From Ekhidna sp. (GTDB lineage: Bacteria; Bacteroidota; Bacteroidia; Cytophagales; Cyclobacteriaceae), in contig NZ_OZ245746.1 in NCBI RefSeq assembly GCF_965227465.1, positions 1,658,365-1,722,364 on the forward strand: DNA of 64,000 nucleotides, read 5' to 3'. The translations under genes and the position numbers were made by a program. The notes beneath the pieces are model-generated. The model had not been told where the DNA came from. It worked only from the letters and a program-made list of their open reading frames with translations, and searched no databases. Shown here piece after piece: positions 56,510-60,849 of this stretch. The number at the start of each line of letters is the position of its first letter. The stretch's first letter is position 1.

Positions 56510-57165
56510 TGGCTAAAAAAAATAAGTTAACGAAGTTTTCCGAAAATATGGCAAGTAAAAATGTCATAGAGCCAGGAAAAGATCTGTATGAATCCATTCA
56601 CGGAAAGTGGAGTGAATTCTTTGGTAATGATAATGAAATCGTAGTGGAATTGGCGTGCGGATGGGGGGAATATACCATCTCACTGGCAGAGATTTGTCCC
56701 AACCAAAATTTCATAGGCATAGACATCAAAGGAGATCGTGTCTGGAAAGGAAGTCAGTATGCTCAGAAGAATAGCCTAGATAATGTAGCTTTTTTACGGA
56801 CCCACATTATTGAAATCCATAACCTGTTTGATGAAAAAGAGGTGGATGAAATCTGGCTCACATTCCCTGACCCCAGACCTAAGGATCGGGATGAAAAACA
56901 TCGATTATCAAATAAATCTTTTCTGGAAAAATACAGATCGATCCTTAAACCCGATGGTTGGTTCAAATTCAAAACCGACAACACAGCTCTTTTCGAATAT
57001 ACGCTTCAGGTTTTGGCAGATTTTGACATCAAAGATCACGAATTCACTTTCGATCTTTACAACTCTCCGCTGTTGGCTGATCACTATGACATCAAAACCA
57101 AATATGAGCGAATCTGGACGGAAAAAGGGGAGAAGATCAAGTACATGAAGTTTCGATTCAAATAA
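56509..57165 (+). CDS. trmB: tRNA (guanine-N7)-methyltransferase
   Basis: ELACGWGEY, GIDIKGDR, LTFPDP, FKTD and KTKYE; TTG start. Confidence 0.93.
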   Translation: MAKKNKLTKFSENMASKNVIEPGKDLYESIHGKWSEFFGNDNEIVVELACGWGEYTISLAEICPNQNFIGIDIKGDRVWKGSQYAQKNSLDNVAFLRTHIIEIHNLFDEKEVDEIWLTFPDPRPKDRDEKHRLSNKSFLEKYRSILKPDGWFKFKTDNTALFEYTLQVLADFDIKDHEFTFDLYNSPLLADHYDIKTKYERIWTEKGEKIKYMKFRFK

Positions 57166-57188
57166 AATAGGGGCTTATGCCCCTATTT
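57165..57188. terminator. Bidirectional terminator between trmB and SulP
   Basis: AAATAGGGG-cttatg-CCCCTATTT. Confidence 0.75.
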
Positions 57189-58901
57189 CTACTCAACAAA
57201 CGTATCATCGTATGCTTCCGGATGTGAAATGGAAACATCATCTCCAGGTTCAATGCTTGAATGGTGACTTACAATCTGACCGTCTTTGATAACGAATGAA
57301 AACCTCAGATCATTGGTTTCTTCAAACCCTTCGGATTTCCATTTGATCTTATACTGTCCACTGTCTACCTTAAAACCGTCAATCTTTTGAGATATAACCT
57401 GATAAGGTGCGACCATGAGATCATGTTTTTCAAAAAGGTCTCGATATAAGTCTTTGATTTGATCTTTGTTTCTTCTTATCCTGGTAGAAAAGGCAGGGAT
57501 CATCATCGCATCGTCGCTATAAACCTTCATTAGTGCATTTATATCATGACTGTTAATTGCCTTCACCCATTTATCGAGGGTAGGAACGCTTGCTTCTGCA
57601 ATCATATCTTCTCTTTCAATTCTGGCTTTATCAGCGTCTGGCTTGAAGGTATCTTTGAGAAGCTCGATGACTTCCTGAGTGGATTTTCCTGTTCTTCTCA
57701 TGAAAATATATTGAATAAAAGCATGGGCAAAAAGAAGTAGCAAAAGGCCTTCGAAGATTCCCAATTCAAAAACCAGAAAGCCACAAATACCCGCCATAAT
57801 TAATGCATATCTGCCTTCCGATCGGACATTTGCGATATTGGCAATCATTTTCCACCCTGAATATACCATAATGATACCTAATGCATATTCTGGTGTATGC
57901 TCAAGAATGATTGGAAATAGTACAACCAATAGAATTACCAGTGATGTAAAAACATTGGATAGTTTGGTTACAGCACCAGCTACTGTGTTGGTGGTACTCT
58001 TTGCTAAGCCGTCCAGATTGGTCATGCCACCAAAGAAAGTAGCTCCCATATTGGCAATCCAGATTGCGAGCAAGCTATTATTAGAGTTAGCCTTTCTATT
58101 GAAGGGATCTATTTTCTCAATTGCCACATTGCTCATCACTTGCTCAATTACATCGATGGTTCCAAGCATCATTGCGAAACCGATCATTTTCAAGATCAGG
58201 AAAAAGATCTCCTGCTCATTAAACCCTGTAAAATGCGGCACAGGTAATGCAAGATGGAAGGGAACAGAATCAATCGAGATCATTGGTAGTGGCATGAAAA
58301 AGCTTAATACAAAGCTTGTTGCCATGATAACAAAATAAGGTAGCGCCGGCATCTTCTTTTTGTAGTACTTGTATAGAAGTACGAAAGACACAAATGATAC
58401 CAGGCTAAGCAGGATAATCACTTCTCTCTCGAAATTGAGCCAGGTCGCTGTTTCATGTTCAATGTCGTAGAGAAATGGAACAAACTTGAGAGCTATTTTT
58501 AAACCTACCCCAGCCAATAAACCTTCGACCAGATAGTGAGGTACTATTCTTAAAATGTATCGTTCCAGTCGATATTTCCAGACTACTGCTTGAAACAAAG
58601 CTGTAAGTAGGATCACAAATGGCATATTTTCCATTCCAAATGTGTGTACACCCAGCGCCAATGCGGGTGCTAATCCGGCTGCCACTCCTGGCATACCTGT
58701 ATAGTTACCAGGCTTAAATAAATAGGTTATAAAGCTTATTATCCCTGCAAAAATGACGGTATATAAACCTGTCATAATTGGGTATTCGGACATTAAACAA
58801 ATGCCAACTGTTAGTGGGACTGCCATGACACCTGCTACAGTTCCTGCAAGTGCGTCTCTTTTTATATGCTTTAAAGATTCGATTAGACGTTGCTTGATCA
58901 T
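57189..58901 (-). CDS. SulP/SLC26 anion transporter lacking STAS, fused to a C-terminal NTF2-fold iota-carbonic-anhydrase-like domain
   Basis: SulP: D.LAG.VAG..AVPL..G, G.AAGL, FFGG...KS..N..AGA.TKLS. C-terminal domain: W.KA...D...Y.DDA..IP.FS..IR...DSG.Y...RFSFV..DG.IVSHHSS.EP. Confidence 0.8.
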   Translation of the reverse strand: MIKQRLIESLKHIKRDALAGTVAGVMAVPLTVGICLMSEYPIMTGLYTVIFAGIISFITYLFKPGNYTGMPGVAAGLAPALALGVHTFGMENMPFVILLTALFQAVVWKYRLERYILRIVPHYLVEGLLAGVGLKIALKFVPFLYDIEHETATWLNFEREVIILLSLVSFVSFVLLYKYYKKKMPALPYFVIMATSFVLSFFMPLPMISIDSVPFHLALPVPHFTGFNEQEIFFLILKMIGFAMMLGTIDVIEQVMSNVAIEKIDPFNRKANSNNSLLAIWIANMGATFFGGMTNLDGLAKSTTNTVAGAVTKLSNVFTSLVILLVVLFPIILEHTPEYALGIIMVYSGWKMIANIANVRSEGRYALIMAGICGFLVFELGIFEGLLLLLFAHAFIQYIFMRRTGKSTQEVIELLKDTFKPDADKARIEREDMIAEASVPTLDKWVKAINSHDINALMKVYSDDAMMIPAFSTRIRRNKDQIKDLYRDLFEKHDLMVAPYQVISQKIDGFKVDSGQYKIKWKSEGFEETNDLRFSFVIKDGQIVSHHSSIEPGDDVSISHPEAYDDTFVE

Positions 58902-59018
58902 CTTATTTTAGTTTGAAGTTGAGTTAAATACATTGCTCAACCTGAATTAATAAATTGGGATTTTGCCTGAAAAATCAGGTCTAATTGAGCCTTGATAGAC
59001 TCAGACTTAAGAATAAGA

Positions 59019-59366
59019 TTATCCTAGGTGGATTTTAAGACAACAGTGTTTGAGGAATAATGGAACGTTACTTCTTCTTATTAAGGAATAGTGTCCGGTA
59101 ATTCCTTGATATTTAAAGCTTGTAAAATGACGTAACTGATAGCAAATCTCATTGGGGATGAAGTCATTGCCACCTGCTGAAAATTGAATCCAATCGCTTT
59201 TTTCGGCACTTTCTTTGAGTTCTTCACGATCAACTTCCCGACTCTCAACGAGCTCTTCCTTTTCAAAATAAAAGTCCCTGGTATCAATAAGCGTCATTGC
59301 TCCAAGGAGAAGCAGTGACGTTATGAGTATAATGGATTTGCTACGAATCACGGAGCAAAAGAACAA
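59019..59366 (-). CDS. Small hypothetical protein upstream of SulP; start uncertain
   Basis: Hydrophobic N-terminus, acidic stretch and a C-terminal PLFLKHCCLKI, resembling small Bacteroidetes proteins that precede transporter genes. Confidence 0.45.
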   Translation of the reverse strand: MFFCSVIRSKSIILITSLLLLGAMTLIDTRDFYFEKEELVESREVDREELKESAEKSDWIQFSAGGNDFIPNEICYQLRHFTSFKYQGITGHYSLIRRSNVPLFLKHCCLKIHLG

Positions 59367-59406
59367 GAGATTAGATTTAAAAAATAGGACATGAGAATTG
59401 TCAAAA

Positions 59407-59422
59407 TGTGATAAATGTTACA
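59407..59422. promoter_or_regulatory. CRP/FNR-like operator
   Basis: TGTGA-TAAATG-TTACA, one mismatch from TGTGA-N6-TCACA, between the divergent crp-like gene and the SulP unit. Confidence 0.55.
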
Positions 59423-59451
59423 TTTTACAAAAACTTAAATCACCCGATTGA

Positions 59452-60138
59452 ATGAAAGTAGACATTAAGAAGTTTGATTTTGAGAGTAATAGAATTCTCT
59501 CATCACTGTCAAAAAGCGAGCAGGAGCTTTTCATTGCTCATGGTGATACTTTGATATTTAAGCGGAATAAGCTAGTTTTTTATGAGGGAGGAATTCCAAC
59601 AGGAGTTTTTTTAATCGAAAACGGTAGAGCTAAAATCTATAAAACAGGTTTGGATGGAAAAGATCAGATTTTTTATATCTACAAGACTGGCGATCTGTTA
59701 GGTTATCATGCGCTTCTTTGTAATGAACATTACGAAGACTCTTGTGAAGCTCTGGAGGATTGCAAAATCCTTTTTATCAGTAAACTAAATTTTAACAGTC
59801 TCATTAAAAAGATACCTCACTTGAGCCAGTTACTCATTCAAAATATGAGTCATGAATTTGGGGTATTGGTCAATACAATCACCATACTTGCACAAAAACC
59901 GTTAAGAGAACGATTAGCACTTTACCTGCTTATTTTGAATAAAAAATATGTCGAGCAGGGCGGGGACATAATGCTTCCACGTGAAGACATGGCTAATATT
60001 ATTGGAACTGCACGTGAAAGTCTTGGAAGACTGCTCAAAGAATTTAAAGAAGAAAAACTAATTGAAGTTGACAATAAGATTATTCGAATTAATAATCACG
60101 GCAAGCTATTGAAGATCGCGAGTTCAGTTTATAATTAG
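59452..60138 (+). CDS. Crp/Fnr family transcriptional regulator
   Basis: cNMP-binding-like barrel (GVFLIENGRAKIYK...GDLLG), RERLALYL and HTH REDMANIIGTARESLGRLL. Confidence 0.92.
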   Translation: MKVDIKKFDFESNRILSSLSKSEQELFIAHGDTLIFKRNKLVFYEGGIPTGVFLIENGRAKIYKTGLDGKDQIFYIYKTGDLLGYHALLCNEHYEDSCEALEDCKILFISKLNFNSLIKKIPHLSQLLIQNMSHEFGVLVNTITILAQKPLRERLALYLLILNKKYVEQGGDIMLPREDMANIIGTARESLGRLLKEFKEEKLIEVDNKIIRINNHGKLLKIASSVYN

Positions 60139-60849
60139 CTATCTATACTCCGGATTTTCAAAATTCCACCTTGTCCCATCATCCCAGTCTTTTCTAGAGT
60201 TGCCATACTTCGGATATCCACTATTCTCTTTCAGCATCTTGGCTAGATGCAGTAAGTTATAAGTCATGAATGTGGTATTTCTGTTAGTAAAAGCATTGTC
60301 AAACGCATTTGCTTCCTTATCCATGTAACTGGGACCAGGGCCTGCTTCTCCAATCCAACCACAGTCAGCTTGCGGGGGTATTGAATATCCTAAATGCTGA
60401 AGTGCATAAAGCATACTCATTGCGCAGTGTTTAATTCCGTCTTCGTTACCGGTAATCACACATCCGCCTACTTTACCATAATAGATATACTGGCCTTTAT
60501 CGTTTTGATTTCCGCTCATGCCATACAGGCGCTCAATCAGTTTTGTCGCAACGGAAGACTTCTCACCCAACCAGATGGGAGTACCGATAATTAAGATGTC
60601 GGCCGCCCTGACTTTCTCATAAATATCCGGCCATTCATCCGAATCATATCCATGTTCAGTCATATCAGGATACACACCGTAAGGCACATCATGATCAACA
60701 AATCGCATGTATTCAACGGACACATTTTCCTTCTCCATGATATCAATTGATACTTGCATCAAGCCTTGTGTATGGCTTTGTCGTGGAGATTTCTTCAGCG
60801 TACAATTGATGAAGAGGGCAGATAAATTTGAAAAGTCAGGTTTACTCAT
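60139..60849 (-). CDS. Flavodoxin-like NAD(P)H-dependent FMN reductase family
   Basis: NCTLKKSP..SHT, GTPIWLGE.SS and GNEDG..H. Confidence 0.85.
   Translation of the reverse strand: MSKPDFSNLSALFINCTLKKSPRQSHTQGLMQVSIDIMEKENVSVEYMRFVDHDVPYGVYPDMTEHGYDSDEWPDIYEKVRAADILIIGTPIWLGEKSSVATKLIERLYGMSGNQNDKGQYIYYGKVGGCVITGNEDGIKHCAMSMLYALQHLGYSIPPQADCGWIGEAGPGPSYMDKEANAFDNAFTNRNTTFMTYNLLHLAKMLKENSGYPKYGNSRKDWDDGTRWNFENPEYR

What the first reader, a model, noticed from the sequence alone, without database searches (positions are those of the whole stretch)
57189..58901. SulP transporter fused to an iota-carbonic-anhydrase-like domain in place of STAS
Seen: after the SulP TM core, about 115 residues (about 57246-57580) match the COG4875/CaMKII-association-domain pattern and end in SHHSS.EP; no STAS domain is present. 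Known: iota-CAs (diatom LCIP63, Burkholderia BteCA-iota, cyanobacterial COG4337/COG4875-type proteins) have this NTF2-like fold and HHSS motif, and SulP-beta-CA fusions such as Rv3273 act in bicarbonate handling. I do not know of a described SulP-iota-CA fusion. Caveat: by eye the usual LPT(V/L)S Thr reads IPAFS and the DYF Tyr reads DLY, so the domain may bind or sense bicarbonate instead of catalysing. Inference: a single-chain CO2/HCO3- transport metabolon or gated transporter.
Basis: partly seen in the sequence, partly recalled or inferred. Interest (0 to 1): 0.8.

Follow-up and report, generated by a model that had tools for sequence, protein, structure and literature searches.

The report
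SulP transporter with dead iota-CA tail
A marine Bacteroidota anion transporter has swapped its usual regulatory tail for a domain that descends from iota-class carbonic anhydrases but has lost two residues that enzyme needs, so it is probably a regulatory or dimerising module and not a working enzyme.

Summary
Window 57189-58901 (-) encodes a 570-aa protein with a 14-helix SulP/SLC26 core (aa 14-405), a 35-aa linker, and an NTF2-like domain (aa 441-552) ending in SHHSSIEP. There is no STAS domain.

The domain is a true homologue of COG4875/PF08332 iota-carbonic-anhydrase-type proteins (hhalign E 4e-36; best solved relative 3H51). The fused domains form one clade. None of 118 family members keeps the full catalytic Thr/Tyr/His/Ser set:
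- Thr is Ala (A470).
- Tyr is Leu or Phe (L485).
- The Ala before the conserved Arg is Leu (L532).
- His547 and Ser549 stay invariant.

Free-standing relatives keep the full set in 105 of 123 cases. Published Thr-to-Ala and Tyr-to-Ala mutants are inactive. I therefore read the domain as a pseudo-enzyme that replaces STAS. The transported substrate is unresolved.

It comprises a divergent Crp/Fnr regulator with a conserved CRP-like box, a ~110-aa single-pass acidic membrane protein, and the transporter.

The fusion was found in 10 of 40 other species of the genus (probably Ekhidna). It was found in none of 400 other Bacteroidota genomes sampled.

I found no paper describing this fusion. I class it as a new variant of a known kind, of moderate interest.

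The parts
57189..58901 (-). Whole gene: SulP core plus iota-CA-derived NTF2-like domain, 570 aa plus stop
   Evidence: ORF list and translation. There are more than 118 full-length homologues of 566-579 aa at 67-96% identity.
57687..58862 (-). SulP/SLC26 membrane core, aa 14-405, 14 helices (7+7 fold)
   Evidence: PF00916 at 86.4 bits. The model has 14 helices. Foldseek gives 5IOF at 3.5e-12 and 6KI1 at 1.1e-11. phmmer's best solved match is BicA 6KI1 at 1.1e-9.
57582..57686 (-). Linker, aa 406-440, basic just after helix 14, ending in a motif specific to the fusion clade (D432..E436-P437-x-V439-P440)
   Evidence: pLDDT is below 50 for aa 423-437. D432, E436, P437, V439 and P440 are conserved only in the fusion clade.
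57246..57581 (-). NTF2-like domain of iota-CA (COG4875/PF08332) descent, aa 441-552
   Evidence: Domain model pLDDT 89. 3H51 is the best match by sequence and by fold. hhalign against free-standing relatives gives E 4e-36. The clade is monophyletic with support 0.99.
57492..57494 (-). Ala470 in the catalytic Thr slot (IPAFS where relatives have LPTxS)
   Evidence: Fusion clade: A 111, S 13, T 2 of 131. Free-standing relatives: T 142 of 160. T106A is inactive (PMC8132391).
57447..57449 (-). Leu485 in the catalytic Tyr slot (DLY where relatives have DYF), 15 residues after the Thr slot as in the diatom enzyme (T62/Y77)
   Evidence: Fusion clade: L 76, F 41, Y 8 of 131. Free-standing relatives: Y 158 of 160. 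The spacing comes from PMC8395977.
57255..57266 (-). HHSS motif, aa 546-549. His547 and Ser549 are the retained half of the catalytic set.
   Evidence: H547 is H in 129 of 131 and S549 is S in 128 of 131 fusion-clade members. Both are also near-invariant in free-standing relatives.
57192..57245 (-). C-terminal tail, aa 553-570, low model confidence, partly conserved (S-I-S-H-P-E-A-Y)
   Evidence: Column counts. pLDDT 52-58.
59019..59366 (-). Conserved upstream small gene, about 103-115 aa: N-terminal membrane helix, acidic stretch, C-terminal ...CCLK(I/V) end. No family match.
   Evidence: No Pfam or NCBIfam hit. A homologue lies directly upstream of the fusion gene in all 13 other loci scanned and was detected in 9 of the 10 genus genomes that carry the fusion.
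59407..59422 (-). CRP-like box TGTAACATTTATCACA between the divergent regulator gene and the small gene
   Evidence: It is the only match in the window. It is kept with at most 3 mismatches in 9 of 11 other loci that have the adjacent regulator, and in none of the 6 loci that lack it.
59452..60138 (+). Divergent Crp/Fnr-family regulator (cNMP-binding domain plus HTH_Crp_2)
   Evidence: Pfam and NCBIfam. An orthologue at 66-88% identity is adjacent in L026, L027, L030-L033 and L036, and a Crp-family gene is adjacent in L053-L056.

Best explanation
The gene encodes a secondary anion transporter of the SulP/SLC26 family. Its cytoplasmic STAS domain has been replaced by a domain that descends from a cytoplasmic iota-class (COG4875-type) carbonic anhydrase.

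After the fusion the domain lost the Thr and Tyr hydroxyls that carry out catalysis and contact bicarbonate, and the cavity gained a bulky hydrophobic residue (Leu532). It kept the fold, the His/Ser pair of HHSS, the conserved Arg, and the beta-sheet face that iota-CA domains use to dimerise.

I infer that it no longer hydrates CO2. I infer that it serves as the cytoplasmic dimerising and regulatory module of the transporter, the role STAS plays elsewhere, possibly still binding a small ligand in the altered cavity.

The transporter is made together with a small single-pass acidic membrane protein. Both are probably controlled by the adjacent Crp/Fnr-type regulator through a conserved CRP-like box.

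The substrate is not established. A small inorganic anion is likely, and bicarbonate is the leading guess only because of the domain's ancestry.

Shown: the architecture, the homology, the residue losses, the monophyly of the fused domains, and the cassette. Inferred: the lack of activity, the dimerising or regulatory role, the regulation, and the substrate.
For: Architecture.

Homology to iota-CA-type domains:
- 3H51 is the top match by sequence and by fold.
- The A1 profile hits 3H51 at 4e-29 and iota-CA 7C5X at 7e-9.
- hhalign against free-standing relatives gives E 4e-36.

Loss of catalytic residues across the family:
- No fused domain has the Thr/Tyr/His/Ser set: 0 of 31 fused domains sampled for the tree and 0 of 118 full-length family members.
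- Free-standing single domains have it in 105 of 123 cases, and repeat domains in 33 of 43.
- Column contrasts show T to A470, Y to L/F485 and A to L532.
- Mutating those residues to Ala abolishes activity in all2909 and in Bn86287 (PMC8132391).

Retained residues under selection: Y461, S472, G515, Y517, R533, I543, H547, S549 and P552.

Dimer face: iota-CA domains dimerise through the sheet that carries HHHSS and the conserved Arg (PMC8395977).

Single origin: the fused domains form one clade with support 0.99.

Cytoplasmic location: there are 14 helices and a basic stretch after helix 14.

Cassette and operator.
Against: - No activity or binding was measured.
- Tyr486 sits one residue after the lost Tyr in 75% of members, and Ser or Thr occupies the Thr slot in about 11%. 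A rewired active site therefore cannot be excluded.
- Near-invariance of His547 and Ser549 suggests that a functional pocket persists, which a pure scaffold would not need.
- I could not inspect the cavity geometry of the model or model a dimer.
- One metagenomic fragment (P0132) carries a STAS domain followed by a fusion-clade domain. In some relatives the domain may therefore add to STAS and not replace it.
Confidence: 0.55

Rival explanations
1. One reading: the tail is an active iota-type carbonic anhydrase. The protein is then a one-chain bicarbonate-transport and CO2-interconversion unit, like the SulP-beta-CA fusions of the Rv3273 type.
For: - The domain is truly homologous to iota-CAs, and His547 and Ser549 are invariant.
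- SulP clades that lack STAS and are fused or adjacent to a CA are known (PMC6458275).
- One related locus has a beta-CA beside the regulator gene (L027).
- Tyr486 lies next to the lost Tyr.
Against: - The Thr slot is Ala and the Tyr slot is Leu or Phe across the family, and no member keeps the full set.
- Thr-to-Ala and Tyr-to-Ala mutants were inactive in both enzymes tested.
- An extra bulky Leu532 replaces a conserved Ala near the pocket.
- A CA gene is adjacent in only 1 of 18 loci examined.
Confidence: 0.12
2. The tail is a non-catalytic ligand sensor. The altered, more hydrophobic cavity binds CO2, bicarbonate or another small molecule and gates transport allosterically.
For: - Pocket-facing residues on the last strand remain conserved on alternate positions: I543, S/T545, H547, S549.
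- The fusion clade has its own invariant residues: N450, H452, K511, D513.
- STAS domains, which this domain replaces, are regulatory in other SulP proteins (bioRxiv 10.1101/2022.06.08.495363).
Against: - The two hydroxyls that contact bicarbonate in the crystal structures are the ones lost.
- No ligand is indicated by context.
- This reading overlaps the best explanation and differs only in requiring a ligand.
Confidence: 0.2
3. The domain is an enzyme with different chemistry, as many NTF2-like proteins are (isomerases, dehydratases, cyclases, epoxide hydrolases). It would act on an organic substrate carried by the transporter.
For: - Pfam matches SnoaL_2, SnoaL_3 and DUF4440 more readily than CaMKII_AD.
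- Foldseek ranks ketosteroid isomerases just below 3H51.
- The cavity has become more hydrophobic.
- Some SulP members carry organic anions; NCBIfam names the DauA model a C4-dicarboxylic acid transporter.
Against: - The closest sequence relatives are all of the iota-CA type.
- No catalytic pattern of a known NTF2-fold enzyme was recognised.
- No metabolic genes are conserved next to the cassette.
Confidence: 0.08

Closest known systems
COG4875-type iota-carbonic anhydrases and their uncharacterised bacterial homologues (Thalassiosira LCIP63/tp-iota-CA, Burkholderia territorii BteCA-iota, Xanthomonas campestris protein PDB 3H51; Pfam PF08332)
   Same: The NTF2-like fold is shared. So are the HHSS motif with the His and Ser, the conserved Arg (xRF), and Y461, G515, Y517 and P552. 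The alignment is almost ungapped over 118 columns.
   Different: - The catalytic Thr is Ala, the catalytic Tyr is Leu or Phe, and the Ala before the Arg is Leu.
- The domain is fused to the cytoplasmic end of a membrane transporter. Known prokaryotic iota-CAs are single-domain proteins predicted to be periplasmic (PMC8132391).
- The single sequence does not reach the PF08332 threshold.
COG4337-type metal-free iota-CAs (Anabaena all2909, PDB 7C5V; Bigelowiella Bn86287, PDB 7C5X)
   Same: They share the fold class and the C-terminal HHSS motif. The family profile hits 7C5X at E 7e-9.
   Different: They are more distant. The Thr106, Tyr124, His197 and Ser199 residues shown by mutagenesis to be needed are only half present here.
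SulP-carbonic anhydrase fusions and gene pairs of the Rv3273 type (Felce and Saier 2004; clade C in PMC6458275)
   Same: A SulP core without STAS is joined to a CA-related cytoplasmic domain at its C-terminus.
   Different: There the partner is a beta-class CA with intact features. Here it is an iota-class derivative lacking two catalytic residues. I could not test whether the membrane cores are closely related.
BicA (Synechocystis, PDB 6KI1), the Na+-dependent SulP bicarbonate transporter
   Same: It is the best solved match to the membrane core by sequence (E 1.1e-9) and among the best by fold. BicA Asp258 aligns with Glu253 and Thr262 with Ser257.
   Different: - The match is only 41 bits, and the NCBIfam BicA model scores 44.5 bits against a cut-off of 880.
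- The third Na+ ligand, Thr302, aligns with Leu299.
- An invariant Lys301 sits at the start of helix 10.
- BicA has a STAS domain.
STAS domains of canonical SulP/SLC26 transporters
   Same: It occupies the same position, immediately after helix 14 on the cytoplasmic side. It presumably plays the same role in dimer assembly and regulation (inference).
   Different: The fold is unrelated. There is no STAS match.

Membership tests
SulP/SLC26 transporter family | Match to Pfam PF00916 above the gathering score | tested here: met
   86.4 bits against a cut-off of 23.2. This is the weakest of the five SulP genes in the genome; the others score 176-384 bits.
SulP/SLC26 transporter family | 14-helix 7+7 inverted-repeat membrane fold | tested here: met
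   The model has 14 helices. Foldseek TM-score is 0.75 to SLC26Dg and 0.70 to BicA, normalised by target length.
SulP/SLC26 transporter family | C-terminal cytoplasmic STAS domain | tested here: not met
   No STAS hit at E<=1, and there is no room in the 35-aa linker. STAS is detected in two paralogues of the same genome.
BicA-type bicarbonate transporter (NCBIfam NF050096) | Score above the equivalog cut-off | tested here: not met
   44.5 bits against a cut-off of 880.
Iota-class carbonic anhydrase (COG4875 type) | NTF2-like / CaMKII-association-domain fold | tested here: met
   Model pLDDT 89. The top Foldseek hit is 3H51 with TM-score 0.70 and rmsd 2.0.
Iota-class carbonic anhydrase (COG4875 type) | Sequence homology to family members | tested here: met
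   phmmer to 3H51 gives 3.9e-8. hhalign to free-standing relatives gives E 4e-36. Those relatives hit PF08332 above its cut-off. The single sequence itself gives no PF08332 hit; 3 of 8 clade members hit it at E<=0.01.
Iota-class carbonic anhydrase (COG4875 type) | C-terminal His-His-Ser-Ser motif with the catalytic His and Ser | tested here: met
   HHSS lies at 546-549. H547 and S549 are near-invariant.
Iota-class carbonic anhydrase (COG4875 type) | Catalytic Thr (LPTxS; all2909 Thr106, tp-iota-CA Thr62) | tested here: not met
   Ala470 occupies the slot. In the fusion clade it is A 111, S 13, T 2 of 131.
Iota-class carbonic anhydrase (COG4875 type) | Catalytic Tyr (DYF; all2909 Tyr124, tp-iota-CA Tyr77) | tested here: not met
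   Leu485 occupies the slot. In the fusion clade it is L 76, F 41, Y 8 of 131.
Iota-class carbonic anhydrase (COG4875 type) | CO2 hydration activity | not testable with these tools
   This needs an enzyme assay.
SulP-CA fusion (Rv3273 type) | STAS-less SulP core fused to a catalytically intact carbonic anhydrase domain | tested here: not met
   The core lacks STAS, so that part is met. The fused domain is not a beta-CA (the only PF00484 match in the genome lies elsewhere). It also lacks two catalytic residues of its own class.

The most novel reading that the evidence does not exclude
The dead iota-CA domain is a dedicated cytoplasmic CO2/bicarbonate (or other small-molecule) receptor that gates a SulP transporter. 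Together with the small acidic membrane protein and its own Crp-type regulator it forms a previously unrecognised, self-contained three-gene module for sensing and moving inorganic carbon in heterotrophic marine Bacteroidota. It would be an example of an enzyme turned into a transporter's allosteric sensor.
Probability: 0.2. Interest if true: 0.75.

Novelty: new variant of a known kind. Interest (0 to 1): 0.5.

Why it matters
SulP/SLC26 transporters are usually described as a membrane core plus a STAS domain. Fusions to beta-carbonic anhydrase were the original argument that some family members move bicarbonate.

This family extends that theme to the recently discovered iota class, with a twist: the enzyme domain has been kept for some purpose other than its catalytic chemistry.

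- It offers a natural experiment on what the cytoplasmic domain of an SLC26 transporter must do, namely dimerise, dock or sense.
- It gives a clean evolutionary contrast for finding which iota-CA residues are catalytic. Free-standing relatives keep the Thr/Tyr/His/Ser set, while fused ones have Ala, Leu/Phe, His, Ser.
- It marks a small accessory cassette (regulator, small membrane protein, transporter) that is patchily distributed in marine Cytophagales and could be studied as a unit.

It also warns against annotating proteins as iota-CAs from the HHSS motif alone.

Tried and rejected
- **Pfam on the single sequence** gave only SnoaL_2, SnoaL_3 and DUF4440 near their thresholds and no CaMKII_AD hit. 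I did not take this as evidence against iota-CA descent. These models belong to one clan, and true iota-CA repeat proteins hit all of them. Profile-profile comparison settled the homology.
- **Foldseek alone** does not discriminate. Ketosteroid isomerases follow 3H51 closely, and 7C5V/7C5X are not in the top 50.
- **Inferring the substrate from the BicA Na+ site** was inconclusive. Asp258 aligns with Glu253 and Thr262 with Ser257, but Thr302 aligns with Leu299.
- **A context link to carbonic anhydrase** was rejected as a conserved feature. A beta-CA lies beside the regulator in only one locus (L027). The genome's own beta-CA is about 120 kb away, and no PF08332 gene exceeds the cut-off in the genome.
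The search for related loci failed on alignment A4. With P0130 as query it returned only spurious 25-29% matches in genome and metagenome contigs.
- **A word-based search restricted to the domain region** added no distant fusion proteins.
- **Rfam** found no RNA family in 56900-59600, including the 117-nt spacer between the small gene and the transporter gene.
- **A shared regulon with the genome's three perfect TGTAACAAATGTTACA palindromes** was considered. One half-site differs, and two-mismatch matches are no more frequent than the control (8 against 7), so I make no claim.
- **A homologue search for the small protein** found only four close relatives, none with a name.
Full report
**1. What is in the sequence**

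Window 57189..58901 on the minus strand is a single open frame of 570 codons.

- Pfam places a Sulfate_transp (SulP) match on residues 14-359 at 86.4 bits against a cut-off of 23.2.
- NCBIfam's sulP, DauA and BicA models match only far below their cut-offs.
- The genome has four other SulP genes, which score 176-384 bits, so this core is a divergent family member.
- A full-length AlphaFold model built on 45 homologues (mean pLDDT 72.6) shows 14 membrane helices.
- Its best structural matches are the membrane domains of SLC26Dg (5IOF) and BicA (6KI1), followed by eukaryotic SLC26 proteins.
- By sequence the best solved relative of the core is BicA, at only 41 bits (E 1.1e-9).

**2. No STAS domain**

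No STAS model matches at E<=1. Only residues 406-440 separate helix 14 from the C-terminal domain, and 423-437 are predicted disordered. Two paralogues in the same genome show clear STAS matches, so the method does detect STAS in this organism. With 14 helices and a basic stretch (MRRTGKS) after helix 14, the C-terminal domain should lie in the cytoplasm. This is an inference from the established topology of SLC26 proteins.

**3. The C-terminal domain descends from iota-CA-type proteins**

- By sequence the only significant solved relative is 3H51, the Xanthomonas campestris 'CaMKII association domain' protein (E 3.9e-8). It is also the best structural match (E 2e-10, TM-score 0.70, rmsd 2.0), ahead of many ketosteroid isomerases.
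- The iota-CA literature treats 3H51 as an apparent COG4875-type iota-CA, about 40% identical to the diatom and Burkholderia enzymes (PMC8132391; PMC8395977).
- An exhaustive HMMER search of 1.84 billion representative proteins found 268 relatives.
- Beyond fragments of the same fusion, these are 120-130-aa single-domain proteins and proteins with 2-6 repeats. All those I tested hit Pfam CaMKII_AD (PF08332) above its cut-off.
- A profile of the domain plus such relatives hits 3H51 at 4e-29 and the Bigelowiella iota-CA 7C5X at 7e-9.
- A profile of the fusion clade alone aligns to a profile of free-standing relatives over 118 almost ungapped columns, with probability 99.9% and E 4e-36.

Pfam's generic SnoaL and DUF4440 models match the single sequence more readily than PF08332. 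They also match genuine iota-CA repeat proteins, so this does not argue against the descent.

**4. The catalytic set is half gone, across the family**

Hirakawa et al. showed that Thr106, Tyr124, His197 and Ser199 line the bicarbonate cavity of all2909. Each Ala mutant was inactive in all2909. In Bn86287 the Thr and Tyr mutants were inactive and the His and Ser mutants were 4- to 8-fold weaker (PMC8132391). In the COG4875-type diatom enzyme the equivalents are Thr62, Tyr77, His139 and Ser141. That places Tyr 15 residues after Thr and puts His and Ser two apart within HHHSS (PMC8395977).

In this protein those slots are Ala470, Leu485 (470+15), His547 and Ser549.

Among 118 full-length homologues:

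| Slot | Residues seen |
|---|---|
| 470 (Thr slot) | Ala 102, Ser 11, Thr 2 |
| 485 (Tyr slot) | Leu 72, Phe 37, Tyr 5 |
| 547 (His slot) | His 117 |
| 549 (Ser slot) | Ser 116 |

No member combines Thr and Tyr.

In one alignment of all domains, the full Thr/Tyr/His/Ser set is present in 105 of 123 free-standing single domains and in 33 of 43 repeat domains. It is present in none of 31 sampled fused domains. The fused domains form one clade with support 0.99.

A column-by-column contrast of 131 fusion-clade domains against 160 others shows three things:
- Three positions are conserved outside the clade and lost inside it: Thr to Ala470, Tyr to Leu/Phe485, and the Ala before the conserved Arg to Leu/Ile/Val532. 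All three changes are towards hydrophobic residues.
- Y461, P469, S472, G515, Y517, R533, I543, H547, S549 and P552 are conserved in both groups.
- The fusion clade has its own invariant residues: D432, E436, P437, V439 and P440 in the linker, and H452, M458 and K511 in the domain.

I conclude that the domain is under purifying selection but not for the known iota-CA chemistry. It is best described as an iota-CA-derived pseudo-enzyme. This is an inference from mutagenesis of homologues; no activity was measured here.

**5. What the domain probably does**

SLC26 proteins are homodimers whose cytoplasmic STAS domains contribute to assembly and regulation (summarised in bioRxiv 10.1101/2022.06.08.495363). 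Iota-CA domains dimerise through the beta-sheet face that carries HHHSS and the conserved Arg (PMC8395977), and that face is conserved here.

The simplest reading is that the domain has taken over the dimerising and regulatory role of STAS. The persistent invariance of His547 and Ser549, and the alternating conservation of I543, S/T545, H547 and S549 on the last strand, suggest that a pocket is still used. A ligand-gated version therefore remains a serious alternative. Because the lost hydroxyls are the ones that contact bicarbonate, the ligand need not be bicarbonate.

I could not inspect model coordinates or predict a dimer.

**6. Substrate**

- BicA's Na+ ligands Asp258 and Thr262 align with the invariant Glu253 and Ser257. 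Thr302 aligns with Leu299. An invariant Lys301 sits at the start of helix 10.
- This does not identify the substrate or the coupling ion.
- Bicarbonate is suggested only by the ancestry of the fused domain and by analogy with STAS-less SulP-CA pairs (PMC6458275).
- Earlier unchecked notes from this scan report STAS-less SulP-like genes beside DAB and SbtA loci in other genomes. They share only a few short words with this core, and I did not test them.

**7. A conserved cassette**

Immediately upstream on the same strand lies a 115-codon frame (59019-59366) with no family match.

- Homologues of this frame lie directly upstream of the fusion gene in all 13 other loci scanned.
- Within the genus it was detected in 9 of the 10 genomes that carry the fusion. 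Apart from one incomplete genome and one weak hit, it was not detected in genomes lacking the fusion.
- The family shares an N-terminal membrane helix, a Glu-rich stretch and a C-terminal hydrophobic end...CCLK(I/V)x(L/F).

Divergent from it is a Crp/Fnr-family regulator gene (59452-60138). An orthologue or a Crp-family gene sits in the same position in 11 of 17 other loci examined.

The 85-bp space between them holds TGTAACATTTATCACA (59407-59422), a one-mismatch version of the classical CRP box, which is my knowledge of that consensus. It is unique in the window. It is kept with at most 3 mismatches in 9 of the 11 loci that have the adjacent regulator, and is absent from all 6 loci that lack it.

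Genes further out differ from locus to locus, and a beta-CA is nearby only in L027. The unit therefore looks like a self-contained accessory cassette with its own regulator. Regulation by that protein is inferred.

**8. Distribution**

Names attached to the closest homologues point to Ekhidna (Reichenbachiellaceae, Cytophagales).

- The fusion was found in 10 of 40 other species of the genus.
- It was found in 0 of 12 genomes of other genera of the family, and in none of 400 Bacteroidota genomes sampled. Neither the domain at fusion-like scores nor the core at E<=1e-40 appeared.
- Metagenome-derived homologues are labelled Reichenbachiella, Cyclobacteriaceae, Saprospiraceae and Chitinophagales.
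- One 320-aa metagenomic fragment (P0132) carries a genuine STAS domain followed by a fusion-clade domain. This hints that an ancestor or a sister form had both.

**9. Novelty**

Full-text searches found no paper containing both SulP and NTF2. None linked SulP or SLC26 with SnoaL, DUF4440 or the CaMKII association domain. None described an iota-CA fused to a transporter. Databases name these proteins only 'SulP family inorganic anion transporter' or 'DUF4440 domain-containing protein'.

SulP fusions to beta-CA are long known, and an earlier report of this scan describes a gamma-CA fusion. I therefore class this as a new variant of a known kind. What is new is the iota-class origin of the partner and its loss of catalytic residues.

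**10. Verdict**

- The catalytic 'metabolon' reading is unlikely (about 0.12).
- A non-catalytic replacement for STAS is the best explanation (about 0.55), and a ligand-gated version is the main alternative (about 0.2).
- Interest is moderate.

Noticed in passing
L048:1501-1516, L049:1501-1516, L051:1501-1516 (own genome C1:1749954, 2729110, 3068832): A perfect 16-bp palindrome, TGTAACAAATGTTACA, occurs three times in the genome, each time between genes. The sites lie upstream of a canonical SulP-STAS gene followed by a metallo-beta-lactamase/rhodanese gene, beside a sulfide:quinone-oxidoreductase-like flavoprotein gene, and (with a second degenerate copy) upstream of an outer-membrane efflux gene. 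This may be a sulfide-response regulon of another Crp/Fnr-type regulator.
   Followed up: partly
L003:1453-3684 (own genome C1, around 4104046): A 743-aa SulP paralogue has a roughly 350-aa C-terminal extension with no Pfam match and no STAS hit. Another paralogue (L002, 528 aa) also shows no STAS hit.
   Followed up: no
P0132 (320-aa metagenomic fragment): It carries a genuine STAS domain (PF01740, E 4.6e-15) followed by an NTF2-like domain of the fusion clade (44% identical to the window's domain). This may be a SulP-STAS-NTF2 intermediate. The 3' end looks truncated or frameshifted.
   Followed up: partly
L026:7826-8152 and L027:7728-8051: In two related loci a second small gene (107-108 aa, N-terminal hydrophobic segment; the L027 product ends ...INCCL) follows the transporter gene. 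It is absent from the window, where trmB converges on the transporter gene 24 bp away.
   Followed up: no
window 58902-59018: A spacer of about 80-117 nt separates the small gene from the transporter gene in every locus examined. There is no Rfam match, and I did not analyse its conservation.
   Followed up: partly
window 60139-60849 (-): An NADPH-dependent FMN reductase-like gene lies beyond the regulator gene. It is also present at the same place in the closest relative (L030) but not in more distant loci.
   Followed up: partly
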